Positions 27,912-47,391 of a stretch of DNA of 64,000 bases are shown piece after piece (positions within the stretch are counted from its first letter, which is position 1; each line of letters starts with the position of its first letter). A program made the translations under genes and the position numbers. Below the pieces are notes generated by a model. The model was not told where the DNA came from and did no database searches. It saw nothing but the letters and a program-made list of their open reading frames with translations. The stretch is from a virus (taxonomy: Duplodnaviria > Caudoviricetes), in the IMG/VR virus record IMGVR_UViG_3300021511_000007, positions 1,191 to 65,190 of that record. The stretch is one strand, 5' to 3'.

Positions 27912-27967
27912 ATCAGACGGTTACGTGGGTAATCGTTTTATGCGGAGCTGCATAACGCCCGTTAACC
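27912..27967 (+). mobile_element. attI-like site heading cassette array 1
   Basis: 52 bp 51/52 identical to 33066-33117, with identity ending at GTT; layout TGCATAA-N5-GTTAACC. Confidence 0.6.
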
Positions 27968-28189
27968 AGCCCGCGTATTCCATGCGGTCACAGCTTCTTC
28001 TGGTGTAGCAAAATCGTCTGTTTCTGGCTCAACTGCGCATTCTGGATTTACACATTTCGCAGCCTCCCTGTTATCCCCGCAGGCAACGACTAGAGCGCCC
28101 CTGCCGCAGAATGGGCAGGGTAACAAAGCAGTCAACGCGGACGCTTCGCGTCCTGCGTCGTCTGCTGTTTCGGTGTCTTGTTCAGCCAT
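27962..28189 (-). CDS. Lar-like restriction-alleviation Zn-finger protein (inverted cassette gene)
   Basis: 'LLPCPFCG...C...C...EEAVTAWNTR'; start lies inside attC 28118-28239; stop is the TAA of the GTTAACC core. Confidence 0.75.
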   Translation of the reverse strand: MAEQDTETADDAGREASALTALLPCPFCGRGALVVACGDNREAAKCVNPECAVEPETDDFATPEEAVTAWNTRAG

Positions 28190-28239
28190 TGCCGCAACCT
28201 CGAGTTTAGGAGTAAGCGCCGGTTACCGCAACGTTAGGT
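28118..28239 (+). mobile_element. attC-like site
   Basis: GGGTAAC-aaagcagtcaacgcggacgct...agcgccggttaccgcaac-GTTAGGT imperfect inverted repeat. Confidence 0.75.
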
Positions 28240-28300
28240 GCAAAAAAAAATAATTACTCACCGTGTAACGCAAGAATAAAAAACGCTACGGTAAGGTATA

Positions 28301-28900
28301 TTGAATACAATGACACCATTAGAATCAACGGCCGCAGGCCATTTAATAAAGAAGCTGCTTGATCGGGTGCTGGAATATCCAGCCCACATTGCCTTAATGA
28401 TTTTGGCCAGTCTTCTCTCACCCATTCTGGTTTGGCTAAAATCCCAAGGATTAGCAATTTGGATACCGGATACAGTGCCAACATGGCTACTAATATTGTT
28501 ACTTCTACCAACATTTGTTGTACTCCATGCTACTTATAAAAATCTAAAAAAATATACGGGATTTGAACTACTGCACTACACAAACAAAGATATTTCTATG
28601 ATCCCCAAGGGGATTAAAGTTTATCTGACCATTCATCCTAAATTCGATATTTTAGACCCTGAAGATATTGTTTGTGAAAAATGCGACATGCTTTTATCGA
28701 AAAACATCGTACATGAACATCCAAATAATCCTGATGGCTGGTCCTGTTTATTTTGCGAATTAAACATTACCGGCGATGAATACAACAAATCTACAGAGGT
28801 GGCTAGAAACTTAGCTATCGGTTACTTCTATAAAACAAGACATCGAATGCCCGGCATCAAAGATCCGGTGACATTAAAGGACATAGACCCTAATCAATAA
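28301..28900 (+). CDS. AT-rich cassette gene: TM helices plus C-terminal CxxC/CxxC Zn-ribbon
   Basis: Two hydrophobic helices, CEKC and CLFC; conventional integron orientation. Confidence 0.75.
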   Translation: MNTMTPLESTAAGHLIKKLLDRVLEYPAHIALMILASLLSPILVWLKSQGLAIWIPDTVPTWLLILLLLPTFVVLHATYKNLKKYTGFELLHYTNKDISMIPKGIKVYLTIHPKFDILDPEDIVCEKCDMLLSKNIVHEHPNNPDGWSCLFCELNITGDEYNKSTEVARNLAIGYFYKTRHRMPGIKDPVTLKDIDPNQ

Positions 28901-28950
28901 ATACACCCGACATCCTTCGTCGGCGGCTGAAGCAAACGCCAGGTATGTAA

Positions 28951-29499
28951 ATGGATAAATTAAAAGAAGAAGTCATTACTCATCTTTTGGGACTCCTAAA
29001 AAAGTGGTTGCCACATCCGAAATCTTATTTGCTACTGCTAGTAACAGTGCTCCTATCAGCATCCCTTTTTGTGTATCCTGAGAAAGCCCTAGAATTAGTT
29101 CAGAAAAAACCAACACCAGAAATAATATCGGACCTAAAATGGATAATTTCACCGTGGCTCTTATTCCTTGGCGTTTTGGTTGCTCATTTTCAAACTGTCG
29201 CATATCTTCACTCCCAAATCACGAAGGAAAAATTCGATATAAACAATTACGGACTTCATGAATTTCCCACCACAGCGCGGGCATATAAACTTAAACTAAA
29301 GCAAAATAATCAGAACACAGAGCCCACCCAGTATTTGTGTGAATATTGTGCTGCTAATAATTATGAATCTCCCTTGCAACCTGTTGGGTTCAACAGGGGT
29401 GTTTCGTTTTTCCTTAAATGCCACAAATGCGGGCTTATAATTCCAATAAAAACAATGTCTAATGCACTTGAGCAACTAATCAGGTCTAAAATCACCTAA
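28951..29499 (+). CDS. AT-rich cassette gene: TM helices plus C-terminal CxxC/CxxC Zn-ribbon
   Basis: Hydrophobic helices, CEYC and CHKC; stop codon lies within the R'' ACCTAAC, as in classical cassettes. Confidence 0.8.
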   Translation: MDKLKEEVITHLLGLLKKWLPHPKSYLLLLVTVLLSASLFVYPEKALELVQKKPTPEIISDLKWIISPWLLFLGVLVAHFQTVAYLHSQITKEKFDINNYGLHEFPTTARAYKLKLKQNNQNTEPTQYLCEYCAANNYESPLQPVGFNRGVSFFLKCHKCGLIIPIKTMSNALEQLIRSKIT

Positions 29500-29556
29500 C
29501 TAGCGCCTACAGCCGACCGCGCAAACGACGCGCGGCGGCTGAGGCAAGCGTTAGTC
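29494..29556 (+). mobile_element. Canonical short attC site (63 bp)
   Basis: ACCTAAC-tagcgcctacagccgaccgcgc-aaacgac-gcgcggcggctgaggcaagc-GTTAGTC; the left arm carries extra bases relative to the right arm. Confidence 0.9.
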
Positions 29557-29889
29557 GCTCAATGCTTTCCGCGCCTTATGCCCTCTATCCTGTAGGACAA
29601 AATTATCTTCTTCAGCTTGACGGACCGCTCGTATCGTGACCCGATCAAGTGTTCCATCCAATGCCAGCGGGCTGCTCCAATAGTTATCGTCTTCCGCATA
29701 GAAAGAAAGCGCTTCTTGTAGATATGCGATTCGCTCTGTCGCCTCCCGCAATAAGTGCGCAGTTTTTCGGTCTTTTACGTGCGGTGCCATTTGCTGGTAA
29801 TGATGACGCAATCGACTAACAAGCGCGTCAACGCCGACCGCCGGGTCTGCGGCGGCTTCGGGGTTCGTGGTGTCTGTGGCTTCAGTCAT
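29551..29889 (-). CDS. Hypothetical protein (inverted cassette gene, 112 aa)
   Basis: Cassette ends GTTAGTCG (29550) and CGACTAAC (29813) are exact complements; RBS and ATG lie in the attC loop. Confidence 0.75.
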   Translation of the reverse strand: MTEATDTTNPEAAADPAVGVDALVSRLRHHYQQMAPHVKDRKTAHLLREATERIAYLQEALSFYAEDDNYWSSPLALDGTLDRVTIRAVRQAEEDNFVLQDRGHKARKALSD

Positions 29890-29942
29890 TTCTGCATGTC
29901 TCCTGTGCTCAATCCGGCGTCTCGTTACGCTTTACGTTAACG
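29814..29942 (+). mobile_element. attC-like site
   Basis: GACTAAC-aagcgcgtcaacgccgaccgccgg...ccggcgtctcgttacgctttac-GTTAACG. Confidence 0.8.
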
Positions 29943-29944
29943 AT

Positions 29945-30364
29945 TTACGCAGCCGACACCGCAGCATCGGCAGAGACAAGAAAGGCGTATGCCCAGTTGT
30001 CCTTATCACTATCCAATAAACCCGCTCTTGATGGGTGCGGGTCATGTACCATCTTGCCGTTCAGCCCCACTACGGCGTGCTGTGTGCCGCGCTCTGTCTT
30101 TCCATAGATCAGGTGGTAGCAATCCACCGCGCCGAACTTCTGGTGCGTATAGAAGCTGAACGTGTTTGAAATCAGGTGGAAATATCCGAGACTCCCGAGG
30201 AAGCCATTCAGTGTCTCGTTGAAATGGATGTCGTCGTTCTTCTCGTTGAAATGCGGGATGTCATACGGGTCCATCTCCAGGAGAGAGGCAATACATGCCC
30301 GCTGACAATCGCCGTACACACCGTTATCCGGGTCATTCAATATCGTCTGGTCTACTGGATTCAT
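29945..30364 (-). CDS. Phage hypothetical protein (Cys/His motif, 139 aa)
   Basis: 'GDC.RACIASLLE...PHF...HAVVG..G.MVHDPHPS' family motif. Confidence 0.75.
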   Translation of the reverse strand: MNPVDQTILNDPDNGVYGDCQRACIASLLEMDPYDIPHFNEKNDDIHFNETLNGFLGSLGYFHLISNTFSFYTHQKFGAVDCYHLIYGKTERGTQHAVVGLNGKMVHDPHPSRAGLLDSDKDNWAYAFLVSADAAVSAA

Positions 30365-30461
30365 GGCTTCAATTCCTCGTTGTTCCTGCCCGGCGTCGGG
30401 TTACGCAAATCCATCTTCATCCGTCTGGTAATGAAAAATGTGGCGTGCCTCACTCGCTCGG

Positions 30462-32867: not shown

Positions 32868-32894
32868 TGGGGGCGCTCCACCTATGTCCTCGTG

Positions 32895-33032: not shown

Positions 33033-33065
33033 TTTGGCCCCTCTGGTGTTGTTTTTCAGCAGCGC

Positions 33066-33121
33066 ATCAGACGGTTACGTGGGTAATCGTTTTATGCGGA
33101 GCTGCATAACGCCTGTTGGGC
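33066..33121 (+). mobile_element. attI-like site heading cassette array 2
   Basis: Duplicate of 27912-27963; TGCATAA-N5-GTTGGGC. Confidence 0.6.
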
Positions 33122-33125
33122 CGAC

Positions 33126-33314: not shown

Positions 33315-33335
33315 CGTGTTCTCCTGGGAATTGCT

Positions 33336-33423
33336 TCCCAATAAAGTTTTCAAGCCAACCCTGATGGGTCGGCGGCGGATCTCAGGCCCCGCAGCGGGGG
33401 GGCGGCTGAAAACGGCGTTATGC
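33336..33423 (+). mobile_element. attC-like site (degenerate R'')
   Basis: TCCCAAT-aaagttttcaagccaaccc...gggcggctgaaaacggc-GTTATGC. Confidence 0.65.
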
Positions 33424-33780
33424 CGACGTATCCGGCTCCAGGAATCGAACCGGTTTTCCAACACTACGGCTGTATTTCAGTTCCTTGCGCGTAGACTCAC
33501 CGATGTAGCCGCCAACGTTAAGAACGAGCACCTCATCTGCCAGATCTATTTTTCGTAAATGGAGTTCATCTAGTGCCCGTTTCTCGGGGCCGTCTTCTCT
33601 GATCGGGGCGTCTCCCGCATGGATCATTACCCCAACTGACAGTACTATTCGGCCAGCAAGTGACTCCTCTCTGTGCGCTGTTATCCACGCATCCGCGAAC
33701 CGAGTAGAGCCGCACAGACAAACGATCTGCGGCATAACAAGGCTATGAACCCGACCTGTAGACTCCTGTGTTTCGCTCAT
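33418..33780 (-). CDS. Nucleoside-deoxyribosyltransferase-like/DUF4406-type protein (inverted cassette gene)
   Basis: 'IVCLCGSTRF...LDELHLRKIDLADEVLVLNVGGYIGEST..E'; cassette ends GTTATGCC/GGCATAAC are exact complements. Confidence 0.75.
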   Translation of the reverse strand: MSETQESTGRVHSLVMPQIVCLCGSTRFADAWITAHREESLAGRIVLSVGVMIHAGDAPIREDGPEKRALDELHLRKIDLADEVLVLNVGGYIGESTRKELKYSRSVGKPVRFLEPDTSA

Positions 33781-33844
33781 GCTCAGTGTCTCCTGTGTTC
33801 TGGTGTTGTTCGGTGTGGGGCGGGTTATGGCCAGCCCGTTAGAT
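33732..33844 (+). mobile_element. attC-like site
   Basis: GCATAAC-aaggctatgaacccgacc...gggcgggttatggccagccc-GTTAGAT; the loop holds the antisense RBS and ATG. Confidence 0.8.
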
Positions 33845-33848
33845 TTAC

Positions 33849-34135
33849 TCAGCCAATCACCGCTATTGCAGTCTTGTCCTGCGGCAGCATCCCGTAAATC
33901 TCTGCCAAAGTTGGCGCTATGGCTTCGCTCTTCATCTCAGCCAAAAGCCCGTTGCGGTTCCTTCCGAATTCATGGGTATACACAGGGCGTCCCAATGTTT
34001 TTTCCACGGCCTCATGGAACACGCCAAATGGGCAGCACAGTTTGTATTGTACCATTTGAAAACAGCTATGCCGGCATGGTCTTGCTCTTTCCACCATTCA
34101 CTTTCATACAGTTTAATCGCTTGCTCTTTTGTCAC
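33849..34135 (-). pseudogene. Frameshifted phage hypothetical gene in a cassette
   Basis: MTKEQAIKLYESEWWK...IAVF continues as QMVQYKLCCPFGVFHEAVEKTLGRPVYTHEFG in another frame; one base appears missing in the T run near 34060. Confidence 0.6.
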
Positions 34136-34198
34136 CGGAGCGCGTAGACCCCTGCGGGTTTCAGGTAGGGCGCCGCGGCGCCCGGTTAAGCTTGTGCG

Positions 34199-34519
34199 TT
34201 ATGAATACTGAGATTCCGCCCACTTCTCCCAGGAAAATCCGCATTCGCAGTCCGGCCACTCTCTGCCAGAGAAGTCCTGGGCTCCGTAATCGGCTGGTAT
34301 GGTGCAATTAGGACACATCGGCACCTGAATAATGATGCGAGTGCCAGGAGGGAATTCTGGGGCGCTCAGCTTCAGGTCCAGGGTCGCCCCGATATTCTCG
34401 TCACCCTCTTTGGGGTAACTGGTAATCCACGTCGGGCGCATCTGATCGCTGCGTTCGCCGTCATAGCAATCGGGCTCCATGCGGTATGTTTGGCTGTCGT
34501 GCATATGCATGCGATTCAT
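34199..34519 (-). CDS. Zn-finger hypothetical protein (inverted cassette gene, 106 aa)
   Basis: CPNC and CEC motifs; cassette ends GTTATGAAT/ATTCATAAC are complementary over 9 bp. Confidence 0.7.
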   Translation of the reverse strand: MNRMHMHDSQTYRMEPDCYDGERSDQMRPTWITSYPKEGDENIGATLDLKLSAPEFPPGTRIIIQVPMCPNCTIPADYGAQDFSGREWPDCECGFSWEKWAESQYS

Positions 34520-34610
34520 AACAAATCATTCCAGCCGATCCCGCGCGTCGGCATTTGAGTTCAATTCGGGCATTGTGCCAGCGCGGGACCGGCTGATTTC
34601 AACGTTAGAT
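34516..34610 (+). mobile_element. attC-like site
   Basis: TCATAAC-aaatcattccagccgatcccgcgc...gcgcgggaccggctgatttcaac-GTTAGAT. Confidence 0.85.
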
Positions 34611-34766
34611 GCGCAAGCGGAGTAGTTCCACTTTCAAGGCTTCGCGTTCCTCGTTTGTAATCCACACTTCCCACTTTGACCGCCCCATGGCCTCCTGCCG
34701 TGCTTTGAATGTCTTGCCCCTAGCGGTCACCGCCGCTGGGGGTTCTGGCTTGCGGGCCTGGTTCAT
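34605..34766 (-). CDS. Small hypothetical protein (53 aa, inverted cassette gene)
   Basis: Hand translation MNQARKPEPPAAVTARGKTFKARQEAMGRSKWEVWITNEEREALKVELLRLRI; stop falls in the GTTAGAT core. Confidence 0.55.
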   Translation of the reverse strand: MNQARKPEPPAAVTARGKTFKARQEAMGRSKWEVWITNEEREALKVELLRLRI

Positions 34767-35285
34767 GGCAAAAAACAGCAGGGCGCGTAATCAAGTGGGC
34801 GCCCTCCGAGTCTACCGGGGAGAATATTCCATCCGCACCGAGCTGATGCAACCATGTGCGAAACCTCCACTCTGAGCGCATTATGCTGCCGGTCAAATCC
34901 ATTAAAATTCTGTTTCCACCGACATCCAACATCGCACTCCGGGGGAGTGTTGATGTTGGCGGGGTCTGCCGGAGCAGGTCTCATGCCAGCCGAAACCGCT
35001 CAACGCGCCCGCCCTTGGATTGGGCCAACTTGGACGCGAACATATACGCCTCGTCGTAAGAGGAGCAGCCGGTATTTCCGCCACCGAACCAGCTCCCGGC
35101 GCCGGTTAACTCAACATGGTAGATTCCGGATATTATGGTATAGGTTACGTCGAATTTCATATCAGTCTCCGGTTCGGTGTTTTGTTTCAGTAACTATATT
35201 GTCTCATATCGTTTCCGGAAACGCAAGCTCTTTCACTGCAAATTCAAAAGAAAATTCAACTGCTCCCAGGCTCCGCAGCAGGCGC

Positions 35286-35372
35286 ACCTAACCAGGCAAT
35301 AAACCGGAGCGCTTAGACCCCGGCAGCTCCCCCGGGCGCAGCAGCGGCGCCCGGTTGTTGCAAGCGTTGGGC
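35286..35372 (+). mobile_element. attC-like site
   Basis: ACCTAAC-caggcaataaaccggagcgc...gcgcccggttgttgcaagc-GTTGGGC. Confidence 0.8.
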
Positions 35373-35643
35373 GTATCAACCAAGTACCTTACCGGAGTGT
35401 CGCTACCTCGTGAAAGATTTTGGGACATCCCAGTCCCCAAAATCGACTCGCCTACGCGACAACCTTTGGTGCCCCGGCACGCCCTGCGGTCGGCGCTGGA
35501 CTCGACAAACACACGCCGAGCCCAACACCGCCCACAAATGGCTTTACGGCGTGTCGGATGTCCTTGCAGATTTTCTCCGCGGCTTCGGGATACACCCCCC
35601 TTCGCCACTACGAAAATCCGCCCGGACCTACGCCTACCGGGGA

Positions 35644-35877
35644 CTACCAGCCTTCGCTTCGCTCTCCATGGCTGGCAGCGATCGGTGTTCTGTCTCTTTC
35701 GGACGCCGTTATTGCACCGTCGATTTTCCGCATTGATGGCACCTTGCCAGTGTTTAGCCAGCGCAGGTAAATAGCGTTAATCGGCTTCGGTGGGGTACCG
35801 AGGGAGTACGTCCATATGCTCACGTAGTCTGCTATTCGTCTGCACCGTTCGTGTTTTTTGAAAGAACTCATAACCAT
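35644..35877 (-). CDS. Hypothetical protein (inverted cassette gene)
   Basis: Starts at or near the GTTATG of the R'' of attC 35868. Confidence 0.45.
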   Translation of the reverse strand: MVMSSFKKHERCRRIADYVSIWTYSLGTPPKPINAIYLRWLNTGKVPSMRKIDGAITASERDRTPIAASHGERSEGW

Positions 35878-35954
35878 TCATTCCTACCGAGCCGTGAGAC
35901 TCCGGCGGCTGATCTCCGGTCCGCTGTGCGGCCGGCAGAATTCAACCGTTAGAT
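35868..35954 (+). mobile_element. attC-like site
   Basis: TCATAAC-cattcattcctaccgagccg...cggccggcagaattcaacc-GTTAGAT. Confidence 0.75.
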
Positions 35955-36158
35955 TTACAAGTTATTCTCAATATCCGTAGGCACCTGACTGAAAGCAATG
36001 CCAACCATGGTGTGGATCTCGTTAAGAATCATCTCATCGGGAGCGTTAAGCTCAATCAGCCGCCCAAGCCGAAGACTATGGCTCAGCACGCTGTGCTTCC
36101 ACTTAGGCGCTGAAACAGGCAATAAATAAGCCGCTTGTTTTTTGCTTGCTGCGCGCAT
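35955..36158 (-). CDS. Hypothetical protein (inverted cassette gene, 67 aa)
   Basis: Cassette ends GTTAGATT (35948) and AATCTAAC (36177) are exact complements; the left attC arm follows. Confidence 0.65.
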   Translation of the reverse strand: MRAASKKQAAYLLPVSAPKWKHSVLSHSLRLGRLIELNAPDEMILNEIHTMVGIAFSQVPTDIENNL

Positions 36159-36179
36159 TTGCTCTCCCCCAATCAGAAT

Positions 36180-36482
36180 CTAACAACTGCATAAAGCCAG
36201 ACCGCCCCGACCGGCGCGGCTCCCCCAACCCTCTTTCCCAGCCATCTCCTCTACCCGAGCCTTTCTCTTGGCTTCGAGAACAATCCCTGCTGCCACCTCG
36301 CTCCATCCCGGAATGTTGCGTCTCGCTATTTTCAAGACATATCCTCCGGGCCGCTTTGTTGACAGCGCGTTTCTAGCAAGCACCACTGCGCACGTAGGAA
36401 CTGCGTCGCTGTTAACGGAAAGGCGCCGATGGTGTTGGGCTATCGCGATTACCAGCGCTGTTTTCATCGTGTTTTCGCTCAT
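36180..36482 (-). CDS. Hypothetical protein
   Basis: MSENTMKTALV... start within the tracked ORF. Confidence 0.5.
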   Translation of the reverse strand: MSENTMKTALVIAIAQHHRRLSVNSDAVPTCAVVLARNALSTKRPGGYVLKIARRNIPGWSEVAAGIVLEAKRKARVEEMAGKEGWGSRAGRGGLALCSC

Positions 36483-36495
36483 CTTATTGTCTCTT

Positions 36496-36735: not shown

Positions 36736-36741
36736 GATGAA

Positions 36742-39373: not shown

Positions 39374-39555
39374 TGTTTTCTCCCGTTCTCCCGGCAGTCA
39401 GCCGGATGGATTATTTCGATGATTCGGCTTGCCCTGGCGTGCCGCTCACTCTGAGTAACAGACAGCCGTTCGCCGTCGACGATGATCCACGCCTTGAAGC
39501 CTGTGCTGCCGGCTGCGGCAACGGCTGCATCGATGGCGGCCTGTGCGTCTACCAT
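39370..39555 (-). CDS. Small hypothetical protein
   Basis: Overlap-coupled ORF in the leftward operon. Confidence 0.5.
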   Translation of the reverse strand: MVDAQAAIDAAVAAAGSTGFKAWIIVDGERLSVTQSERHARASRIIEIIHPADCRENGRKQ

Positions 39556-40049
39556 GCGATCAGACCTACCATAATCATGGCGGCAGCCAACAACCCCGCG
39601 CCGACCCAGTTCCCCTCAAAGCCGCGGTTGCCCGGCGTGCCGTGGCTGAGGCGGACCAGCCGCATTATGTGTCTCATGCTGTCCACCTGGCGGCTTCCTG
39701 GCGGCGCAGCAACTCCTGCGTTTGGTCCCGGGCGCGTTCCGCAGCGATGGGGGTGCTGTACCGACAAATGCCGCAGTCCTCGGCAGCACCGATCGATATC
39801 GTCGATCAGGCATTGGTACTTCTGCCAGTAGATCGACCTGTAAGCGCGGTCCATATCCGGCAGACGCACCGCTATTTTCTGGATGCGCATGGCATGCCCT
39901 CGTAGGTCGGCGGTTTTGTCCGCGAGGTCGGTGTAGGGGTTGGTGGTCATGACGCCCCCTCCCGGAATGGCATCTGTATCTTGCTCATCGCAGCCGACCG
40001 CCTGCTCTTGGGCGGTTTCGATTTCTGCGGTGCTTTTTATGTCTTTCAT
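39549..40049 (-). CDS. Hypothetical protein with C-terminal TM helix; N-terminus derived from an attC relic
   Basis: First gene of the leftward operon; 5' region shares 41/45 nt with 30362-30406. Confidence 0.5.
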   Translation of the reverse strand: MKDIKSTAEIETAQEQAVGCDEQDTDAIPGGGVMTTNPYTDLADKTADLRGHAMRIQKIAVRLPDMDRAYRSIYWQKYQCLIDDIDRCCRGLRHLSVQHPHRCGTRPGPNAGVAAPPGSRQVDSMRHIMRLVRLSHGTPGNRGFEGNWVGAGLLAAAMIMVGLIAW

Positions 40050-40101
40050 GGCTTCTGTTCCTTGTTGTTCCTGCCCGGCGTCGGGTTGCGCTTGTCACCG
40101 G

Positions 40102-40209: not shown

Positions 40210-40217
40210 TCTTAGGC

Positions 40218-40975: not shown

Positions 40976-41012
40976 AATTTCTTAAAAGCCATCGGCTATT
41001 TGGAGAAATACG

Positions 41013-41969: not shown

Positions 41970-42481
41970 GCCGCAATAGCTGGGGAGTTCTGGACCGCGC
42001 GCGCAAGGCCATCGAGTACCGTAACCTCGATCCCGCAAACCTGGACCTGACCAAATTGTTCGACCTGGCCGAGCGCCGGGGAGCGACCGGCAACGACCTA
42101 AACAGCTGGCTCCATCGCCTGATCGGCTGGATCGAGCCGCCGGGCTGCACCATGGGTCACTGCGAGAACGCCGGTGGTGTCGGGTCTTTCTGCCGCTGTG
42201 CCCTCGGCCGGGTACCGGGGCGCTGCAAGATCCACAGGGACTACAAGCGCCGCGTTGCCGAGCGCACGAAGAGGGCAACATCGCGGGTGCTTGAGGTGAT
42301 GGGCGACGGGGCTATCTACGACGCGGAATCGATTCGCGTTGCACTGGGCTGCAACAGGCCGGAGAACATCGACATCGGCGGCCTTCTGCGGTCGCTGGAG
42401 GCCGATGATTTGGTGTACTCAGGAGTGCATCCTGAAAATCAATATGAAAGGCAGTACGTGATCGCAGGGGCGGGTCGGTGA
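41966..42481 (+). CDS. Hypothetical protein (171 aa)
   Basis: ATGA-coupled; Cys cluster. Confidence 0.6.
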   Translation: MSRNSWGVLDRARKAIEYRNLDPANLDLTKLFDLAERRGATGNDLNSWLHRLIGWIEPPGCTMGHCENAGGVGSFCRCALGRVPGRCKIHRDYKRRVAERTKRATSRVLEVMGDGAIYDAESIRVALGCNRPENIDIGGLLRSLEADDLVYSGVHPENQYERQYVIAGAGR

Positions 42482-42482
42482 C

Positions 42483-43472
42483 ATGCGCACTCTCCACCTG
42501 TTCGCCGGAGCCGGGGGCGGTCTGCTCGCAGACCTCATCCTCGGGCATGAGCCAGTCTGCGCCGTTGAACTCGACCCCTGCTGTTGTGCTGTACTCCGGG
42601 CGAGACGAGACGAGGGATGGTTCCCCGGTCTGCACGTGCACGAAGGAGACGCCGGGCTGTTCGATCCATCCTGCTGGGCGGGCCGCGTGGATTGCGTTGC
42701 AGCGGGCTTCCCTTGCCAGCCTTTCAGCGTTGCAGGCAAGCGCCTGGGCGCCGATGACGAGCGCGATATGTGGCCCGCGACGCTGGGAATCATTCGCATG
42801 GTTCGACCCCGGTTCGTGTTCCTGGAAAACGTCTCAGGAATCGTTTCTTGGAACGACGGCGAACGAGTATCAGACATCATCGGGGCGCTGGCCGGCATGG
42901 GCTACGTGGGATCTCACGCGGTGTTGGGAGCTGTCGGCGTTGGTGCCCCGCATATCCGCAAGCGCTGGTGGTGTCTGGCCGAGCGTACCGACTCCGACCG
43001 CGGCCAATGCCAGGAGCGGAGCCTATCAGGTGGTGGACGGGCGGCGAGTTCCGACGCTGGTCGGCTATGCACGGCTGTGGCCGACGCCCACGGCGAGCAT
43101 GATGACTGCCGGGGACCTGGAACAAGCCAGGTTCAGCGGCAGCGACCCACGGCGCCCGAATTATGCAAATGCGAATCAGAGGTTCCCGACCCCGCTCGCC
43201 AGCGATGCGACCGGGGGCTATTCGAGCAAGAAACCGGCGAGCCGCAAGGGGACCGCAGGCATCAAGGAAACCATTCCTGGTGGACCGTTGAGCCCAACGT
43301 GGGTCGAGTGGTTGATGGCTTGGCCCCTCGGCTGGTCGGCCCTGGAATCGTATCCGCCGAGCCCTCGAAGAAAAGAACGGCGGCCAGCCGGCAACACAGA
43401 CTCGCGGCGCTCGGAAATGGGCAAGTCCCGATCCAAGCTGCGTTCGCCTGGCGCATCCTTGGAGGACCATAG
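42483..43472 (+). CDS. DNA (cytosine-5) methyltransferase
   Basis: Motif I 'LFAGAGG', motif IV 'GFPCQPFS', motif VI 'LENV', motif VIII 'PHIRKRW', motif X 'RLAALGNGQVP'. Confidence 0.92.
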   Translation: MRTLHLFAGAGGGLLADLILGHEPVCAVELDPCCCAVLRARRDEGWFPGLHVHEGDAGLFDPSCWAGRVDCVAAGFPCQPFSVAGKRLGADDERDMWPATLGIIRMVRPRFVFLENVSGIVSWNDGERVSDIIGALAGMGYVGSHAVLGAVGVGAPHIRKRWWCLAERTDSDRGQCQERSLSGGGRAASSDAGRLCTAVADAHGEHDDCRGPGTSQVQRQRPTAPELCKCESEVPDPARQRCDRGLFEQETGEPQGDRRHQGNHSWWTVEPNVGRVVDGLAPRLVGPGIVSAEPSKKRTAASRQHRLAALGNGQVPIQAAFAWRILGGP

Positions 43473-43475
43473 CTC

Positions 43476-43625
43476 ATGACATCCCTCTACCGCCCCCAGC
43501 AAAGCACCTGCCGCATATGCGGAGCCAAACTGCTGCCGGACGAGCGATACCGGTACGAGCCGCCATTCGTGGCGCCGCTGCGGCGGTGCCCTGTTCATGG
43601 GTATGCGTGGGAGTGGGGTAGGTGA
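43476..43625 (+). CDS. Small Zn-finger protein
   Basis: MTSLYRPQQSTCRICG...CPVHG, hand translated; GGAGG RBS. Confidence 0.5.
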   Translation: MTSLYRPQQSTCRICGAKLLPDERYRYEPPFVAPLRRCPVHGYAWEWGR

Positions 43626-43657
43626 GTGAGTGCCGCACCCGGGGCGTCCCATGGTGT

Positions 43658-43742
43658 GGTTAACGTAAAGCATAAACCGGCGCACGATGAAGCCAGAGCT
43701 AATCACCACAGTATGACGCTTGGGTTTATGTGCTGGTTAGAT
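43658..43742 (-). mobile_element. attC-like site (top strand on minus)
   Basis: Minus strand: ATCTAAC-cagcacataaacccaagcg...gcgccggtttatgctttac-GTTAACC. Confidence 0.75.
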
Positions 43743-43815
43743 GCCGTGATTTCTAGGGGGATACCTCAATGTCATATTTTCCGAAAATGGTGCCATTGGA
43801 AATGTCTGGCTTGAT

Positions 43816-44004
43816 ATGTCGGGAGAGACGGTCAGCGACGTAGATCTCTGTTATGAAATAGAGATGGGCGAAATAGATAGCTACGCCTCTTCAACAATAC
43901 CACTCCGCGCATTAATTGAAGAGGCGGCGGAAGGTGAAGATGAAGATCGGCGCAAACAACTTGCTAACGAATTGCGCCAACTGGCGGATTTGATAGGCAC
44001 ATAA
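43816..44004 (+). CDS. Hypothetical protein (probable cassette gene)
   Basis: Acidic 62-aa ORF following the attC; start uncertain. Confidence 0.45.
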   Translation: MSGETVSDVDLCYEIEMGEIDSYASSTIPLRALIEEAAEGEDEDRRKQLANELRQLADLIGT

Positions 44005-44015
44005 ACAGCCAACCC

Positions 44016-45512
44016 ATGATCACCCTCCGCGACTATCAGCAGCAGTCTGCCGACGAGATCCGCATCGCGTATCGCCATGGGTATCGGGCACCTCTGTTGG
44101 TCGCCCCAACAGGCAGCGGGAAAACCGTTCTGTTCAGCTACATCGCCCACCATGCAGCCGCCCGCAGCAACAACGTTCTGATCCTGGTCCACCGCCAGGA
44201 ACTGCTGACGCAGACAAGCCGCACCCTGGGTGACATGGGAGTCGACCACGGCCTCGTCGCACGCGGCATGACATTCACCAGGGCAAAAGTCCAGGTGGCC
44301 AGCGTCCAGACCCTGGTCCGCCGGATGCATCGGATGCAGTGGCAGCCGAGCATGATCGTCGTTGACGAGGCGCACCACGCAACAGGCAAGACCACCTGGG
44401 GCAAGGTGTTGCAGCACTATTCAGGCGCGTTCGTGCTAGGTGTCACGGCCACTCCGGAACGCCTCGACGGGCAGGGCCTCGGCGTTGATGCCGGCGGCTT
44501 CTTCGACGCGCTCGTGCTGGGGCCTTCGGTCTCCGCCCTGGTGGGCGAGGGGTATTTGTCGCAACCGGTGGTGTATGCTCCGGCGACGGCAGATCTATCT
44601 GCGGTGCATACCCGCATGGGTGACTACGTGAAGTCAGAGTTGTCAGCGGCCATGGACCGGCCCACGATCACCGGAGACGCTTGCCAGCACTACCGGCGCC
44701 ATTGTCACAACGAACCGGCCATAGCGTTCTGCTGCTCCGTTGCCCACGCCGAAAATGTGGCAGAGCAGTTTCGCGCGGCGGGCTACCAAGCCGCCAGCAT
44801 CGACGGCAAGCTGGACGGGCAGGTCCGGCGGCAACGTATCGCGGATCTCGCCGACGGCCAACTGCACGTCCTCACGTCGTGCGAGATAATCAGCGAGGGA
44901 GTAGATATCCCTGTTGTGTCGGCTGCTATTCTTCTGCGGCCCACACAATCCCTTGGGCTCTCGCTCCAACAGATGGGCCGGGCATTGCGTCCGCACCCCG
45001 GCAAGGAGCGGGCGCTGATCCTCGATCATGCCGGGAATTGTTTGCGCCACGGCCTCCCCGACGACGACCGCGAGTGGTCGCTCGCCGGTGGCAAGCGCAG
45101 CGGCCGGCGCACCACAGATGAGCCCAATATCCCCATCCGTCAGTGCGAGCGCTGTTACCACGTTCATCGCCCGGCGCCGGCCTGCCCGAAGTGCGGATTT
45201 GTCTACGAAGTGCAATCCCGGCAAATCGACGAGGTGGAAGGCGAACTCCAGCAGGTCGACCCCAAAGCGTTGCGGCGTAGTCGCGCCTACGAGGAGCGAC
45301 AGGCGCGTACATACAAGGAGTTGGTCGAGCTCGGCAAGACGCGGGAATACAATAATCCGCACGGGTGGGCGAACAGGCGGATGGTCGGCCGGGCGAAGAG
45401 CATGCGGGATTTGATCGACTTGGCTCATGAGCTTGGGCGCAAGAACCCTGAGAAGTGGGCTGGGTTTTTGTGGCAGAGCCATAGGGCCAATAGACACAAG
45501 AGAGCGGCATGA
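44016..45512 (+). CDS. SF2 DEAD/DEAH-box helicase with Zn finger (498 aa)
   Basis: 'LRDYQ', 'APTGSGKT', 'DEAHH', 'TATPER', 'EGVDIP', 'QQMGRALR', CxxC..CxxC. Confidence 0.95.
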   Translation: MITLRDYQQQSADEIRIAYRHGYRAPLLVAPTGSGKTVLFSYIAHHAAARSNNVLILVHRQELLTQTSRTLGDMGVDHGLVARGMTFTRAKVQVASVQTLVRRMHRMQWQPSMIVVDEAHHATGKTTWGKVLQHYSGAFVLGVTATPERLDGQGLGVDAGGFFDALVLGPSVSALVGEGYLSQPVVYAPATADLSAVHTRMGDYVKSELSAAMDRPTITGDACQHYRRHCHNEPAIAFCCSVAHAENVAEQFRAAGYQAASIDGKLDGQVRRQRIADLADGQLHVLTSCEIISEGVDIPVVSAAILLRPTQSLGLSLQQMGRALRPHPGKERALILDHAGNCLRHGLPDDDREWSLAGGKRSGRRTTDEPNIPIRQCERCYHVHRPAPACPKCGFVYEVQSRQIDEVEGELQQVDPKALRRSRAYEERQARTYKELVELGKTREYNNPHGWANRRMVGRAKSMRDLIDLAHELGRKNPEKWAGFLWQSHRANRHKRAA

Positions 45513-45709
45513 TGACTTTTAATTATGTTAGTTTTGGTGCGGATGAAGACGCCGATTATGCTTATGCGCTGTACCTGGCAAAGCAGGCTGAGCTGTTTTC
45601 ACGCGCAGGGGCAACTGTCGGGATCGTCGGGGTGGTGAAATCGACCATAGGGATAATGCTTCACTATTCGGATATACCTATTCGCACTGATGACTCCGTT
45701 ATCTATTGA
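45509..45709 (+). CDS. Hypothetical protein, cassette copy A
   Basis: Paralog of 46192..46443; 190-bp cassette GTTAGTTT (45527) to AAACTAAC (45716). Confidence 0.65.
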   Translation: MMTFNYVSFGADEDADYAYALYLAKQAELFSRAGATVGIVGVVKSTIGIMLHYSDIPIRTDDSVIY

Positions 45710-45799
45710 AACTAACGGCTGAATCAGCGGGCCGCGCACCGGAGCCAGCGCGACAGCCCCGCCAGAATTTACCGGCTCCGCTGTATTTTATTGTTGGGC
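45710..45799 (-). mobile_element. attC-like site (top strand on minus)
   Basis: Minus strand: GCCCAAC-aataaaatacagcggagcc...ggcccgctgattcagcc-GTTAGTT; extra bases on the left arm. Confidence 0.8.
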
Positions 45800-45822
45800 C
45801 GCGGCCCACACGGGAGAAGAAA

Positions 45823-46134
45823 ATGAGCACCTATACACCTATCGCTGAGCCCGAAAATTACGGTCCGTTTGATGAGCGTGACATCAAGATACACGAAAAA
45901 AAACACGGCACTGGATGGACCTACCTGCGGGTGGGGCGGGTGAGCCTGGAGCGGTTTCCCGCACTCCTCGATACCTGGGGAAATGGGGGCTTCGTGGATG
46001 TCACGAAACCATATCCGGTGCTATCCCATTGGGGGTGGGGGGAAGCATATAGGGCCGTTCTGCCCCCGAGCAAAGCGAAGATGATTAGTGGATTTGGCGA
46101 CGGCGACAGCTTGGTCGCGTACAAAACGCATTGA
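45823..46134 (+). CDS. Hypothetical protein (inverted cassette gene, 103 aa)
   Basis: GGGAGA RBS; MSTYTPIAEP...; cassette ends GTTGGGC/GCCCAAC are exact complements. Confidence 0.7.
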   Translation: MSTYTPIAEPENYGPFDERDIKIHEKKHGTGWTYLRVGRVSLERFPALLDTWGNGGFVDVTKPYPVLSHWGWGEAYRAVLPPSKAKMISGFGDGDSLVAYKTH

Positions 46135-46138
46135 GTCC

Positions 46139-46267
46139 GCCCAACGCCTGCCTAAGCAGCCCGCGGGTCGACACAAAGGAGCCGACAGAACATGACGAAC
46201 CAACAGCAACACGATAGCCAGCAGCCCGCCGCGGACCCCGCGGGTCGGCTTGAGGCTGATGTTAGTT
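46139..46267 (-). mobile_element. attC-like site (top strand on minus)
   Basis: Minus strand: AACTAAC-atcagcctcaagccgacccgcgg...cccgcgggctgcttaggcaggc-GTTGGGC; the loop holds AAGGAG and the ATG at 46192. Confidence 0.85.
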
Positions 46268-46443
46268 TTGGTGCGGATGAGGACGCCGATTATGCTTATG
46301 CTCTGTACCTTGCAAGACAGGCAGAGCTTTTTTCGCGGTCTGGGGCCATTGTAGGAATCGTCGGGATGGTGATGTCGTGCATCGGGGTAACTCATCATTA
46401 TTCGGATGTGCCGATCAGCATCAAAAACCCGGTTATTTACTGA
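46192..46443 (+). CDS. Hypothetical protein, cassette copy B
   Basis: First 23 aa are encoded by the attC arm; 190-bp cassette 46261-46450. Confidence 0.7.
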   Translation: MTNQQQHDSQQPAADPAGRLEADVSFGADEDADYAYALYLARQAELFSRSGAIVGIVGMVMSCIGVTHHYSDVPISIKNPVIY

Positions 46444-46531
46444 AACTAACGAACAGGCATAAGCGGGCGCCTGTACGAGGTGGAACTAAGCGGCGGAGTC
46501 TACGCGCTCCGCCTTAATGCAGTTGTTAGAT
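46444..46531 (-). mobile_element. attC-like site (top strand on minus)
   Basis: Minus strand: ATCTAAC-aactgcattaaggcggagcgcg...gcgcccgcttatgcctgttc-GTTAGTT. Confidence 0.8.
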
Positions 46532-46547
46532 TCTGGTTGGAGGGCGA

Positions 46548-46748
46548 ATGGGACAAGCAAAGCGGCGTGGATCTTTTGAACAGCGGCAAAGGCTGGCTGT
46601 TGAGGGGCTGCGAAAAGAACGGGAGGCGGCCGGCTTGGCGCGAATTGAGGCTGAAGCCAGGCGGGTGGATTCCGAGGAACCGAAAAGACGTGCGGCAAGC
46701 CGGGTGCTGGCAATAGCCCTTGGGGTTGCTCTCGCCTCATCTCGATAG
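46548..46748 (+). CDS. Small basic hypothetical protein (inverted cassette gene)
   Basis: GGAGG RBS; 'MGQAKRRGSFEQR' N-terminus. Confidence 0.7.
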   Translation: MGQAKRRGSFEQRQRLAVEGLRKEREAAGLARIEAEARRVDSEEPKRRAASRVLAIALGVALASSR

Positions 46749-46759
46749 CTGCTGAATCT

Positions 46760-47391
46760 CTCACGGTAGGAACGCCCGTTACCGGGCGCCCCCCGCACAG
46801 ACCCGGACGTGCGGTTTTTCCGCATCCGGTTCCTCGGTTGTACTCGCGTTCGCGACGGGCATTTTATTACTTTAGTTAGACTACAAAGGCCGCATGAGTG
46901 CGTTTGGGCTCAACCACTTTGGGCCAGGCGACGTTCAACCTCTTCAGCGCTTCTTTGAATTGCCCCCAATTGAAACTGCTCTTCTTCCCGCCTCTGCGGT
47001 TGAGCCATTTAAAGGCACTCTTGATCGTGAAGCCGAAGAAGCTGCCAAGGGACTTTTCGTTGCTGCGCACGCCGTAGTAGTTGTAGTGCCCGACCAGTTT
47101 TCGGTTCAAAGCTTGGATGAACTTGCGCCCCGGTTGGTGGCGCTTGGCTTTGACCCACTCTTTCATTCGTCTTTTGGCTCCTTGCAGCTTTTTGCGTGCC
47201 GTCCTTTTCATCACCCGTAGCACTCCACACCGATCGCGATTCCAGTATAGTTCGAATCCAAGAAATGCGAAACGATGGCGCAGTCCGGGGTGAAAGCGGC
47301 TGAAGCGTTGGATGCGGGTCTTTTCAGGGGCCACTTCCAGACCGAATTCCTTCAGTCTTTTGGGCATGGCTTGGTAGAACCGCACGCCGTC
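46760..47391 (-). mobile_element. 5'-truncated group II intron (IEP C-terminus plus domains V-VI)
   Basis: DV/DVI on minus at 46760-46835: GAGGAACCGGATGCGGAAAAACCGCACGTCCGGGTCTGTGCGGGGGGCGCCCGGTAACGGGCGTTCCTACCGTGAG; IEP fragment upstream. Confidence 0.92.
46876..47385 (-). pseudogene. Group II intron reverse transcriptase/maturase C-terminal fragment
   Basis: RT6-7 'GLEVAPEKT...F.FLGF' and domain X 'LNRKL.GHYNYYG...WLNRRG'; no YADD or N-terminal RT domains. Confidence 0.9.

What the first reader, a model, noticed from the sequence alone, without database searches (positions are those of the whole stretch)
27912..46760. Phage accessory genome built from inverted integron-type gene cassettes, with no integrase in view
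Seen: about 12 complete attC-like sites (28118, 29494, 29814, 33336, 33732, 34516, 35286, 35868 on plus; 43658, 45710, 46139, 46444 on minus) plus partial ones, each separating small genes. Cassette ends are often exact reverse complements: GTTAGTCG/CGACTAAC, GTTATGCC/GGCATAAC, GTTATGAAT/ATTCATAAC, GTTAGATT/AATCTAAC, GTTGGGC/GCCCAAC, and GTTAGTTT/AAACTAAC twice. Established: this complementarity is the footprint of cassettes that existed as circles and were integrated by IntI at G/TT, and normal cassette ORFs are co-oriented with the attC top strand. Here the phage-type ORFs are antisense to their attC. attC polarity flips between the leftward and rightward operons, so the genes always follow phage transcription. 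Inference: a phage-adapted cassette system that borrows a host integron integrase to gain, lose and shuffle early/middle genes. I know of no description of this, but could not search the literature.
Basis: partly seen in the sequence, partly recalled or inferred. Interest (0 to 1): 0.93.

Follow-up and report, generated by a model that had tools for sequence, protein, structure and literature searches.

The report
Mirror-image integron cassettes in a phage
A phage from hydrothermal-vent metagenomes keeps about a dozen small accessory genes as integron-type mobile cassettes whose genes run backwards relative to the bacterial layout, and no integrase is present in the sequenced part of its genome.

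Summary
Eight score 33-58 bits and four score 18-27 bits. Nothing else in the 64 kb reaches E<1.

Cassette ends are complementary at 8 of 13 junctions, and 0 of 200,000 permutations reach that count. Phage genes lie antisense to the attC top strand in 12 of 13 coding cassettes. The exception is a 38% GC, bacterial-type cassette that keeps its neighbours' attC polarity but opposes their gene direction.

No IntI, other tyrosine recombinase or serine recombinase was found in the 65-kb record, which is 84% complete.

attC clusters without an integrase are already published for phages (Qi 2023). My five literature searches found no description of the backwards gene layout.

The layout recurs in IMG/VR:
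- Bacterial arrays: 18 sense, 0 antisense.
- Viral contigs without IntI: 11 sense, 33 antisense.
- Viral arrays in canonical position next to a viral-contig IntI: 0 sense, 18 antisense.

This scan's earlier AI notes report the same layout in other phages.

Whether recombination still happens, and where the integrase comes from, remain untested. Folding support is strong for only 2-4 of the 12 sites, and contigs from two other studies show the same arrangement.

The parts
27912..27963 (+). Head 1: a 52-bp block that ends in GTT, directly before the first cassette of array 1. Candidate attI-like site.
   Evidence: It differs at one position from 33066-33117, and similarity stops at the GTT. Its function is inferred.
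33066..33117 (+). Head 2: second copy of the 52-bp block, before array 2.
   Evidence: There is no third copy in the window.
28117..28240 (+). attC A2 (weak). It holds the start codon of the Lar-like gene.
   Evidence: R2 27.0 bits, E 8.5e-4. Bottom-strand fold z -3.0.
28233..29557 (+). Low-GC cassette (38% GC) with two + strand ORFs (28301-28900, 28951-29499). They are sense to their attC and opposite to the phage genes. The cassette ends in attC B (29493-29557).
   Evidence: Its cores GTTAGGTG and CACCTAAC are exact complements. R2 58.4 bits. Fold z -4.6.
29813..29945 (+). attC C (weak). It contains the ribosome-binding site and start codon of gene 29551-29889(-).
   Evidence: R2 21.9 bits, E 0.011. 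Ribosome-binding site and start seen.
33335..33424 (+). attC D, with a decayed R'' box (AAT in place of AAC).
   Evidence: R2 23.9 bits; sequence.
33731..33845 (+). attC E. It contains the ribosome-binding site and start codon of gene 33418-33780(-).
   Evidence: R2 33.2 bits. Fold no better than shuffles, z +1.15.
34134..34187 (+). attC remnant F: inner stem only, with the R'' box and the 5' end of the gene deleted.
   Evidence: R1 16.9 bits, partial match; R2 8.5 bits; comparison with L087.
34515..34611 (+). attC G.
   Evidence: R2 48.0 bits. Fold z -4.3.
35285..35373 (+). attC H.
   Evidence: R2 41.1 bits.
35867..35955 (+). attC I.
   Evidence: R2 38.5 bits. Fold z -2.2.
36178..36200 (+). 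Truncated attC J: the R'' box AATCTAAC plus the start of the 5' arm. This is the distal end of array 2.
   Evidence: It is the exact complement of GTTAGATT at 35948. No model hit.
43657..43743 (-). Solo attC N (weak).
   Evidence: R2 17.6 bits, E 0.094. R1 62.8 bits, but N was a training site for R1.
45709..45800 (-). attC K.
   Evidence: R2 41.7 bits.
46138..46268 (-). attC L. It contains the ribosome-binding site and start codon of gene 46192-46443(+).
   Evidence: R2 42.5 bits.
46443..46532 (-). attC M.
   Evidence: R2 42.8 bits.
45527..45716 (+). 190-bp cassette body, copy A (gene 45509-45709). It has no attC of its own, and its start is coupled to the helicase stop codon.
   Evidence: The roughly 80% similarity to copy B begins at GTTAGTTT and ends at AAACTAAC.
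46261..46450 (+). 190-bp cassette body, copy B (gene 46192-46443).
27962..28189 (-). Cassette gene, Lar-like restriction alleviation protein, antisense to attC.
   Evidence: Pfam PF14354, E 9.6e-9, residues 21-74.
33849..34097 (-). Cassette gene with a DUF7736 domain, antisense to attC. This copy is shortened at the N-terminus and frameshifted.
   Evidence: Pfam E 2.3e-11. A 62% identical homologue sits in the IntI-linked array of L087.
34199..34519 (-). Cassette gene (106 aa) that fills its cassette exactly. Its start codon lies in the R'' box and its stop codon in the R' box.
   Evidence: 10 homologues at 40-57% identity. Codon score +16.3. One homologue is in another phage contig with no attC.
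45823..46134 (+). Cassette gene (103 aa), antisense to attC K and L.
   Evidence: Codon score +21.1.
46548..46748 (+). Cassette gene (66 aa), with weak coding signal.
   Evidence: Codon score +2.0.
46760..47385 (-). 3' remnant of a group II intron (domains V-VI plus a maturase-only ORF at 46876-47385). It abuts AATCT, which is what remains of the core that closes the last cassette.
   Evidence: RF00029 36.5 bits, E 2.4e-5, below the gathering score of 40. GIIM domain. tblastn hits to group II maturases.
35395..35690 (-). Structured element inside the cassette between attC H and I, which has no convincing ORF. It occurs in several contexts in the metagenomes.
   Evidence: RNA fold z -6.26. Extra depth, loose ends and a 179-nt skip. 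No Rfam match.

Best explanation
Statement. The region holds genuine integron-type attC recombination sites. They form three cassette arrays (27.96-29.95 kb and 33.1-36.2 kb with the top strand on +; 45.5-46.76 kb with the top strand on -) plus one solo site. All sit inside the accessory and early regions of an uncultured phage.

How the arrays were built. They were put together by IntI-type site-specific recombination of circular cassettes at G|TT.

How they differ from bacterial integrons. The phage genes lie on the attC bottom strand. Each mobile unit is therefore 'attC hairpin, then ORF', and the crossover falls right after the upstream stop codon. In 4 of the 12 sites the hairpin carries the ribosome-binding site and start codon of its own gene. 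Array polarity flips with the direction of transcription in the two arms.

Source of the integrase. No recombinase was found in the 84% of the genome that is held. The integrase must come in trans (a host integron or a co-infecting phage integron) or from the unsequenced part.

Shown: attC identity and polarity, cassette footprints, gene orientation, and recurrence of the layout in other viral contigs. Inferred: IntI as the agent, present-day activity, the attI role of the 52-bp head, and why the layout is inverted.
For: 1. attC identity.
- R2, built only from bacterial sites, finds 12 sites and nothing else at E<1 in 64 kb.
- The phage-derived model R1 hits 47 of 151 gammaproteobacterial genomes, and 33 of those 47 encode IntI. 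Only 22 of the 104 genomes without a hit encode IntI. Odds ratio 8.8, p 1.3e-8. Without the two unpublished genomes the table is 31/14/22/82, p 5.8e-8.
- In 11 of 12 co-located cases the hit lies upstream of intI on the opposite strand.
- One 8.2-kb contig of a Steroidobacter genome that encodes IntI holds 11 or more co-oriented hits with sense ORFs.

2. Footprints of recombination.
- 8 of 13 junctions have exact complementary cores.
- Two copies of a 190-bp cassette are about 80% alike, and the similarity begins and ends at the cores.
- Two copies of a 52-bp head are similar only up to the GTT.
- The 38% GC cassette shares its neighbours' attC polarity but not their gene direction.

3. Antisense genes.
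- Pfam matches to Lar and DUF7736 lie on the phage strand.
- A 10-member protein family matches gene 34199-34519.
- Codon-usage scores are positive for phage-strand ORFs and -19 to -30 for the attC-sense shadow ORFs.
- The automated test gives 7 antisense, 1 sense and 1 unclear of 9 segments.

4. Recurrence.
- Bacterial arrays: 18 sense, 0 antisense, 7 unclear.
- Thirty attC-bearing IMG/VR contigs: 11 sense, 33 antisense, 15 unclear, with each locus all one way or the other.
- Viral arrays in canonical position next to a viral-contig IntI: 0 sense, 18 antisense, 3 unclear.
- The DUF7736 cassette gene recurs, also antisense, in one such IntI-linked array, bounded there by GTTCGGCC and GGCCGAAC.

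5. Cassette genes have 47-58% GC. Core phage genes have 62-66%.
Against: - Only 2 of 12 bottom strands fold much better than shuffles, and 8 of 12 are not distinguishable from shuffles. Many sites may be decayed.
- Four of the 12 R2 hits are weak (E 8.5e-4 to 0.094).
- Some cassettes are visibly decayed: remnant F, the frameshifted DUF7736 gene, and the D R'' box.
- Contigs from two studies other than the possible source show the same junctions. The only joint reported is not at an attC site. These are contigs, which drop rare variants.
- No close relative of the phage was found. The helicase reaches at most 49% identity, and the 24 distant relatives' loci have 0 R1 hits. Gain or loss at G|TT could therefore not be tested.
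- No integrase is in view, and none of the 30 attC-bearing viral records has one.
- R2's training sites were picked and aligned by the phage-derived R1, so R2 is not fully independent.
- The orientation calls rest on my own codon-usage score, trained on each locus. Most cassette ORFs have no family match.
Confidence: 0.75

Rival explanations
1. The phage has an integron integrase of its own in the roughly 16% of the genome that is not in the record. It would then be a complete phage integron rather than a borrower of a host enzyme.
For: The record is linear and 84% complete. Fifty IMG/VR contigs encode IntI relatives at 41-66% identity. Of these, 29 have R2 hits nearby, and those in canonical position carry antisense cassettes. 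Homologues of this phage's DUF5131, SSB and methylase genes lie next to or inside those integrons. Two identical 52-bp heads suggest a cognate enzyme.
Against: In the canonical viral arrays intI sits directly beyond the head of the array. Here those places are taken by a VRR-NUC gene and by a 45-aa ORF followed by an SbcC-like gene. None of 30 other attC-bearing viral records has IntI, including two that are 97-98% complete.
Confidence: 0.2
2. The arrays are fossils. IntI-type recombination built them long ago, but the sites no longer recombine and now serve only as leaders or spacers between genes.
For: 8 of 12 sites have weak folding z-scores. There are decayed boxes, a remnant attC, a fused double cassette and a frameshifted gene. 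The arrangement is the same in contigs from two other studies. The two cassette copies have diverged to about 80%.
Against: Eight junctions keep perfect 8-9-nt complementarity. The 38% GC cassette has not drifted towards the phage's composition. Two sites fold like textbook attC.
Confidence: 0.25
3. The hairpins are the phage's own regulatory elements (translation or RNA-processing signals) that only resemble attC by convergence.
For: Four sites carry a ribosome-binding site and start codon. On the mRNA they would form 5' leader hairpins.
Against: A model built from bacterial attC scores them up to 58 bits with the correct polarity. The R'' and R' boxes and the cassette footprint are present. 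A foreign cassette lies in attC-consistent orientation. The same layout occurs next to IntI genes in other viral contigs.
Confidence: 0.03
4. The contig is an assembly chimera of a phage and a bacterial integron.
For: Assembly graphs break at the 52-bp heads, at the multi-copy element and at the intron (table 8).
Against: Contigs from two other studies bridge attC junctions with no differences, for example 29331-29994, 33461-34494, 35682-36187 and 43603-43945. The arrays are interleaved with phage genes on both arms. The cassette genes follow phage transcription, unlike bacterial arrays.
Confidence: 0.02

Closest known systems
Clusters of attC sites lacking an integrase (CALINs) in phage genomes (Qi, Rajabal, Ghaly, Tetu, Gillings 2023, PMC9892861; I read the abstract, section 3.4 and passages)
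   Same: Both are attC sites without intI in phage genomes, virulent phages included. In that study 5 of 6 tested phage attC sites recombined with attI1 under IntI1. DNA-modification genes are among the cargo.
   Different: That paper describes CALINs of 2 or more sites (one figure shows 3 attC sites and 4 ORFs). It calls two of them typical in orientation. This phage has 12 sites in three arrays plus a solo site, genes antisense to attC, polarity that flips with the transcription arm, and a duplicated head.
Canonical bacterial integrons (intI, attI, Pc, sense cassettes)
   Same: R''/R' boxes, an imperfect hairpin with extra bases on the R'' arm, a variable loop, complementary cassette ends, and arrays of co-oriented sites.
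   Different: No intI or Pc in view. Genes lie on the bottom strand, against 18 of 18 resolved bacterial cassettes that are sense. Transcription runs from the distal end of the array towards its head.
Integron arrays next to IntI on IMG/VR viral contigs (found here; I know of no publication)
   Same: Where the array lies upstream of intI on the opposite strand, the genes are antisense to attC (0 sense, 18 antisense). One cassette gene family is shared (L087).
   Different: Those contigs encode IntI and this record does not. A second viral type has the array downstream of intI on the same strand, with sense genes (12 sense, 0 antisense).
Group IIC-attC introns (Leon, Quiroga, Centron, Roy 2010, PMC3001079; I read the abstract and passages)
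   Same: A group II intron remnant sits opposite to the adjacent gene, exactly at a cassette core.
   Different: Only the 3' part is left. I did not test whether it belongs to class IIC-attC. By R2 polarity of the neighbouring sites it lies on the top strand, not the bottom strand.
Inverted toxin-antitoxin cassettes in chromosomal integrons (Sci Adv 2024, PMC13108822; seen only in a search listing, the rest recalled)
   Same: Single cassettes whose genes are antisense to their attC.
   Different: Those are exceptions with their own promoters inside sense arrays. Here the whole array is antisense and is read by the phage's own transcription.

Membership tests
Integron attC site | R'' (RYYYAAC) and R' (GTTRRRY) boxes at the two ends | tested here: met
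   Present at all 12 sites. D has AAT in place of AAC, and A2, C and N depart from the strict consensus.
Integron attC site | Match to a covariance model of bona fide attC sites, with polarity | tested here: met
   R2, built from bacterial sites only, gives 8 sites at 33-58 bits and 4 at 18-27 bits. IntegronFinder's own model was not available.
Integron attC site | Bottom strand folds into a hairpin with an unpaired central spacer and extrahelical bases on the R'' arm | tested here: inconclusive
   Clear for B and G (z -4.6 and -4.3, with bulged T's on the 3' arm of the bottom strand). Moderate for A2 and I. No better than shuffles for 8 of 12.
Integron attC site | Recombination by IntI at G|TT | not testable with these tools
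   Only indirect footprints are available.
Integron gene cassette | The start of the cassette (TTRRRY) is complementary to its own R'' box | tested here: met
   8 of 13 junctions are exact, 2 more match at 4 of 5 positions, and 0 of 200,000 permutations reach 8.
Integron gene cassette | The ORF is co-oriented with the attC top strand | tested here: not met
   12 of 13 coding cassettes are antisense. The automated test gives 7 antisense, 1 sense and 1 unclear.
Complete integron | intI gene next to the array | tested here: not met
   No TIGR02249 or PF00589 match in 65,190 bases. The record is 84% complete.
Complete integron | attI site at the head of the array | tested here: inconclusive
   Two nearly identical 52-bp blocks end at the GTT that heads arrays 1 and 2. 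No similar block was found in the viral loci or in IMG/VR. Function was not tested.
CALIN (cluster of attC sites lacking an integrase) | Two or more attC sites within a few kb, with no intI | tested here: met
Group IIC-attC intron | Domains V-VI, a reverse transcriptase-maturase, and insertion in the attC bottom strand opposite to the cassette genes | tested here: inconclusive
   Domains V-VI score 36.5 bits, below the gathering score of 40. Only the maturase part of the protein is present. The remnant is opposite to the adjacent gene, but the 5' exon is lost and its class was not tested.

The most novel reading that the evidence does not exclude
Phages keep a distinct, mirror-image class of integron cassettes: the attC lies 5' of the gene, and the reactive bottom strand is the coding strand. 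These cassettes would form a cassette pool of the phages' own. They would be exchanged by integron integrases that some phage lineages encode and that others, like this one, obtain in trans. The inverted layout places the reactive strand on the non-template and lagging-template strand during infection. It also turns the hairpins into translation leaders. On this reading the duplicated 52-bp head is a working attI.
Probability: 0.4. Interest if true: 0.9.

Novelty: new variant of a known kind. Interest (0 to 1): 0.8.

Why it matters
Integrons are known as bacterial devices for capturing genes. Phage attC clusters have been reported only as small, typical-looking clusters.

This phage has about 14 cassettes, roughly 6 kb of a 65-kb genome, in a layout that bacterial arrays did not show in my sample (0 of 18 resolved cassettes). 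The same layout recurs in dozens of viral contigs, some with their own IntI.

If the sites are active, phages would have a dedicated site-specific route for swapping small early genes such as Lar-like restriction alleviation proteins and, in related contigs, DNA methylases.

The sites give directly testable substrates. One can run attC x attI assays on both strands and test the 52-bp head as an attI. They also offer a natural case for studying strand selection by IntI.

Tried and rejected
Searches and tests that led nowhere:
- Megablast of 27-47 kb against phage records gave no match.
- blastn of one site against plasmids gave only noise, E 0.2 or worse.
- Strict RYYYAAC/GTTRRRY and constrained-hairpin scans were uninformative.
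- Rfam holds no attC family and gave no hit at gathering score. It gave nothing credible for 35250-36000. No tRNA was found.
- The family-specific pattern gave 3 hits in the window. It gave 1 hit in genome contigs, which was a chance match without hairpin structure. By luck that genome has an integron. It gave 0 hits in viral contigs. The head pattern also gave 0 in viral contigs.
- Relatives found by helicase were 6 viral and 19 metagenome loci at 37-49% identity. They have 0 R1 hits over the 24 loci scanned; L020 was not scanned because it is the same contig range as L001. The SbcC-like protein gave no relatives. Cassette gain and loss between relatives could therefore not be tested.
- The longest-ORF orientation test was too noisy in GC-rich DNA and was replaced by codon-usage scores.
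- Pfam and PHROGs gave nothing for most cassette ORFs or for the attC-sense shadow ORFs.
- The low-GC ORF has 11 distant, unnamed homologues.
- blastn-short of the heads against 80 viral loci gave only 13-17-nt matches.
- Read laying reported no joint at any attC site and no circular junction. All four runs are kept as contigs, so absence means little. Parts without cover were not interpreted.
- Note e1-6248085 proposes a fourth cluster at 62.3-62.9 kb. Neither model gave a hit there at E up to 10.

Rows dropped before counts:
- One search used 90 of the 94 hits. The four left out were two opposite-strand shadows and two isolated hits on the other strand.
- Of the 36 bacterial rows, the four from single-hit loci (L018, L040, L043, L048) were left out. 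Two weaker L017 hits were added.
- One search used 65 of 66 hits. L122:344-439(+) was left out.
- L063, L064, L066 and L076 look like one sequence, as do L122 and L126. Independent counts are therefore lower: about 30 antisense instead of 33, and 14 instead of 18.

Literature: five searches. The tables in Qi et al. that list all 17 CALINs may bear on orientation.

Full report
**What the window is.** The window is bases 1191-65190 of a linear IMG/VR virus record of 65,190 bases, estimated 84% complete. It encodes a large terminase, a 4299-aa protein, SbcC-like and SbcD-like proteins, SSB, DUF5131, a C5 DNA methylase and a helicase. Genes run leftward from about 40.05 kb and rightward from about 40.4 kb. 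No phage isolate resembles the region at the DNA level. Public runs that hold the sequence are hydrothermal-vent metagenomes. One may be the source. Two others, from other studies, hold 81% and 46% of its sampled words and give contig pieces with no differences.

**Checking the observation.** I gave the alignment a hairpin structure (73.5% of cells paired, against 33-50% when the partner is slid) and built model R1.

R1 had to be validated on bacteria.
- In 151 gammaproteobacterial genomes it hit 47.
- IntI (TIGR02249, E<=1e-40) was found in 55 of the 151. The overlap is 33, giving an odds ratio of 8.8 and p 1.3e-8.
- These tallies include two unpublished genomes, G040 and G142. Without them the table is 31/14/22/82 and p is 5.8e-8.
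- Where a hit and intI share a contig, the hit lies upstream of intI on the opposite strand in 11 of 12 cases (G040 left out). That is the textbook geometry.
- A Steroidobacter genome with IntI at 479 bits has an 8.2-kb contig with 11 or more co-oriented hits and long ORFs on the same strand.

To reduce circularity I built a second model, R2, from 36 bacterial hits in 12 genomes only and ran it over the whole window with filters off. Eight score 33-58 bits and four score 18-27 bits. Nothing else reaches E<1. R2's training sites were chosen and aligned by R1, so the test is not fully independent.

**Cassette footprint.**
- In an integrated array, the R'' box of each attC should complement the first bases of its own cassette. 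Of 13 junctions, 8 are exact at all five variable positions and 2 match at four. Among 156 non-adjacent combinations, 6 are exact. No permutation in 200,000 reaches 8 (cores).
- Two copies of one 190-bp cassette body (45527-45716 and 46261-46450) are about 80% alike. The similarity starts at GTTAGTTT and stops at AAACTAAC.
- Two nearly identical 52-bp blocks (27912-27963 and 33066-33117) precede arrays 1 and 2, and their similarity ends at the GTT. Bacterial integrons have attI in that position. Whether the block works as an attI is untested. It has no match in IMG/VR or in the viral loci I held.

**Orientation.** R2 polarity is + in the left arm and - in the right arm.

The genes run the other way.
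- The Lar-like gene and the DUF7736 gene have Pfam matches on the phage strand.
- Gene 34199-34519 belongs to a family of 10 homologues.
- The two cassette copies are conserved as protein on the + strand.
- A codon-usage score trained on 15 long phage genes is positive for the phage-strand ORFs of nearly all cassettes. It is -19 to -30 for the long attC-sense ORFs, which therefore look like shadow ORFs.
- By my map, 12 of 13 coding cassettes are antisense. The support is weak for three of them: the Lar-like gene scores -3.3 but has the Pfam match, 33849-34097 scores +3.7, and 46548-46748 scores +2.0.
- The automated version gives 7 antisense, 1 sense and 1 unclear of 9 segments.
- One cassette (35366-35948) has no convincing ORF.

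The single sense cassette (28233-29557) is 38% GC, while the core genes are 62-66% GC. Its two ORFs oppose the phage genes, but its attC has the same polarity as its neighbours. Insertion by a site-specific recombinase predicts that pattern, and selection for expression does not.

**Anatomy that follows.**
- With this polarity, the crossover falls right after the upstream gene's stop codon (TAA|C). Each unit is a hairpin followed by an ORF.
- In A2, C, E and L the long loop carries the ribosome-binding site and start codon.
- In 34199-34519 the start codon lies in the R'' box and the stop codon in the R' box.
- Cassette genes have lower GC (47-58%) than core genes.
- Some cassettes are decayed: a fused double cassette, remnant F, a truncated J, and a DUF7736 gene that is frameshifted and shortened at its N-terminus when compared with its homologue.

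**Results against activity.**
- As single-stranded DNA, only B and G fold far better than shuffles (z -4.6 and -4.3). A2 and I are moderate. Eight sites are not distinguishable from shuffles.
- Contigs of two other studies bridge several attC junctions unchanged, and no joint falls at an attC site. All runs are contigs, which hide rare forms.
- No close relative exists in the collections. The best helicase identity is 49%, and the 24 distant relatives' loci have no R1 hit.

**Where the integrase might be.**
- The record has no IntI, no other tyrosine recombinase and no serine recombinase.
- A strict attC pattern found 30 other IMG/VR contigs, with 94 R2 hits. None encodes IntI, including two that are 97-98% complete.
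- Yet an IntI query found 50 IMG/VR contigs with IntI relatives at 41-66% identity, 29 of them with R2 hits nearby.
- Both routes are therefore open: an integrase in trans, or one in the missing 16% of this genome.

**Recurrence of the layout.** I used the same codon-usage test, trained on each locus.

| Set | Sense | Antisense | Unclear |
|---|---|---|---|
| Bacterial arrays (9 loci) | 18 | 0 | 7 |
| 30 viral contigs without IntI | 11 | 33 | 15 |
| Viral arrays upstream of intI, opposite strand | 0 | 18 | 3 |
| Viral arrays downstream of intI, same strand | 12 | 0 | 3 |

- Among the 30 viral contigs, every locus is all one way: 20 are antisense only and 6 are sense only.
- In both IntI-linked types the genes run in the same direction as intI. 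The phage's one-way transcription appears to be the constant, and attC polarity follows the array's position.
- Near-duplicate loci (L063/L064/L066/L076 and L122/L126) lower the independent counts to about 30 and 14.
- This phage's DUF7736 cassette gene has a 62% identical homologue in one IntI-linked antisense array (L087), bounded there by GTTCGGCC and GGCCGAAC.
- Homologues of its methylase lie inside such arrays, and homologues of its DUF5131 gene lie next to intI.
- By contrast, a homologue of gene 34199-34519 sits in another phage contig with no attC at all. The same genes therefore exist both as cassettes and as ordinary phage genes.

**Group II intron.** At 46760-46834(-) there is a match to group II intron domains V-VI (36.5 bits, E 2.4e-5, below the gathering score of 40). 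It is followed by an ORF that encodes only the maturase part. The remnant ends against AATCT, which is what is left of the core that should close the last cassette. Group IIC-attC introns are published as inserting in the attC bottom strand, opposite to the cassette genes (PMC3001079, passages). This remnant is opposite to the adjacent gene. By the polarity of the neighbouring sites, however, it would lie on the top strand. The 5' exon is lost, so this stays open.

**Most likely mechanism.**
- Shown: attC identity and polarity, cassette footprints, antisense genes, and recurrence of the layout.
- Inferred: IntI-type recombination inserted circular cassettes at the heads and at attC sites. The array's fixed polarity, set against one-way phage transcription, means that only cassettes with antisense genes are expressed. 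The hairpins now double as 5' leaders.
- From established integron biology (recalled, not re-read here): IntI acts on the folded bottom strand, and single-stranded DNA on the lagging-strand template favours folding. In this layout the bottom strand is the non-template strand. If replication starts between the arms, it is also the lagging-strand template. This orientation should favour recombination. It is a proposal, not a result.

**Comparison with what is known.** Clusters of attC sites without an integrase in phages, and their recombination by IntI1, are published (Qi et al. 2023). That paper describes small clusters and calls two of them typical in orientation. My five searches found no description of whole arrays with antisense genes in phages. 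The supplementary tables were closed. Earlier AI notes of this scan report the same layout in at least 48 other genomes. I treated these as leads and tested the claim myself.

**Verdict.** The structural reading is supported. The borrowed-integrase and active-shuffling parts are untested. This is a new variant of a known kind, and of high interest.

Noticed in passing
window 35395-35690 (-): A 296-nt stretch inside the cassette between attC H and I folds far better than shuffles as RNA (z -6.26) and has no convincing ORF and no Rfam match. In the metagenome contigs it has extra depth, loose ends at about 35405 and 35680, and a variant that skips 35451-35629. It therefore looks like a multi-copy element found in several contexts.
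   Followed up: partly
window 46760-47385 (-): The 3' remnant of a group II intron (domains V-VI plus a maturase-only ORF) abuts the half core AATCT. Depth here is 2-4 times that of the flanks, so copies exist elsewhere in the samples.
   Followed up: partly
window 30372-30400 and 40050-40095: A second repeated intergenic block (a GC hairpin followed by a ribosome-binding site) lies upstream of the minus-strand genes 29945-30364 and 39549-40049. It is not attC-like by either model.
   Followed up: no
window 43724-43733 and 44000-44009: A 10-nt inverted repeat (GTTTATGTGC and GCACATAAAC) flanks ORF 43816-44004. Its left copy lies inside the arm of solo site N. It may be a cassette boundary in another register.
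   Followed up: no
window 33849-34190 (-): Compared with its homologue in L087, the DUF7736 cassette gene is frameshifted and has lost its first codons together with the R'' box of its attC.
   Followed up: partly
loci L082-L131 (IMG/VR): Fifty viral contigs encode integron-integrase relatives. Their arrays come in two geometries: upstream on the opposite strand with antisense genes, and downstream on the same strand with sense genes. A DUF5131 gene often lies next to intI.
   Followed up: partly
window 47440-60339 (-): A single ORF of 4299 aa, which I did not analyse.
   Followed up: no
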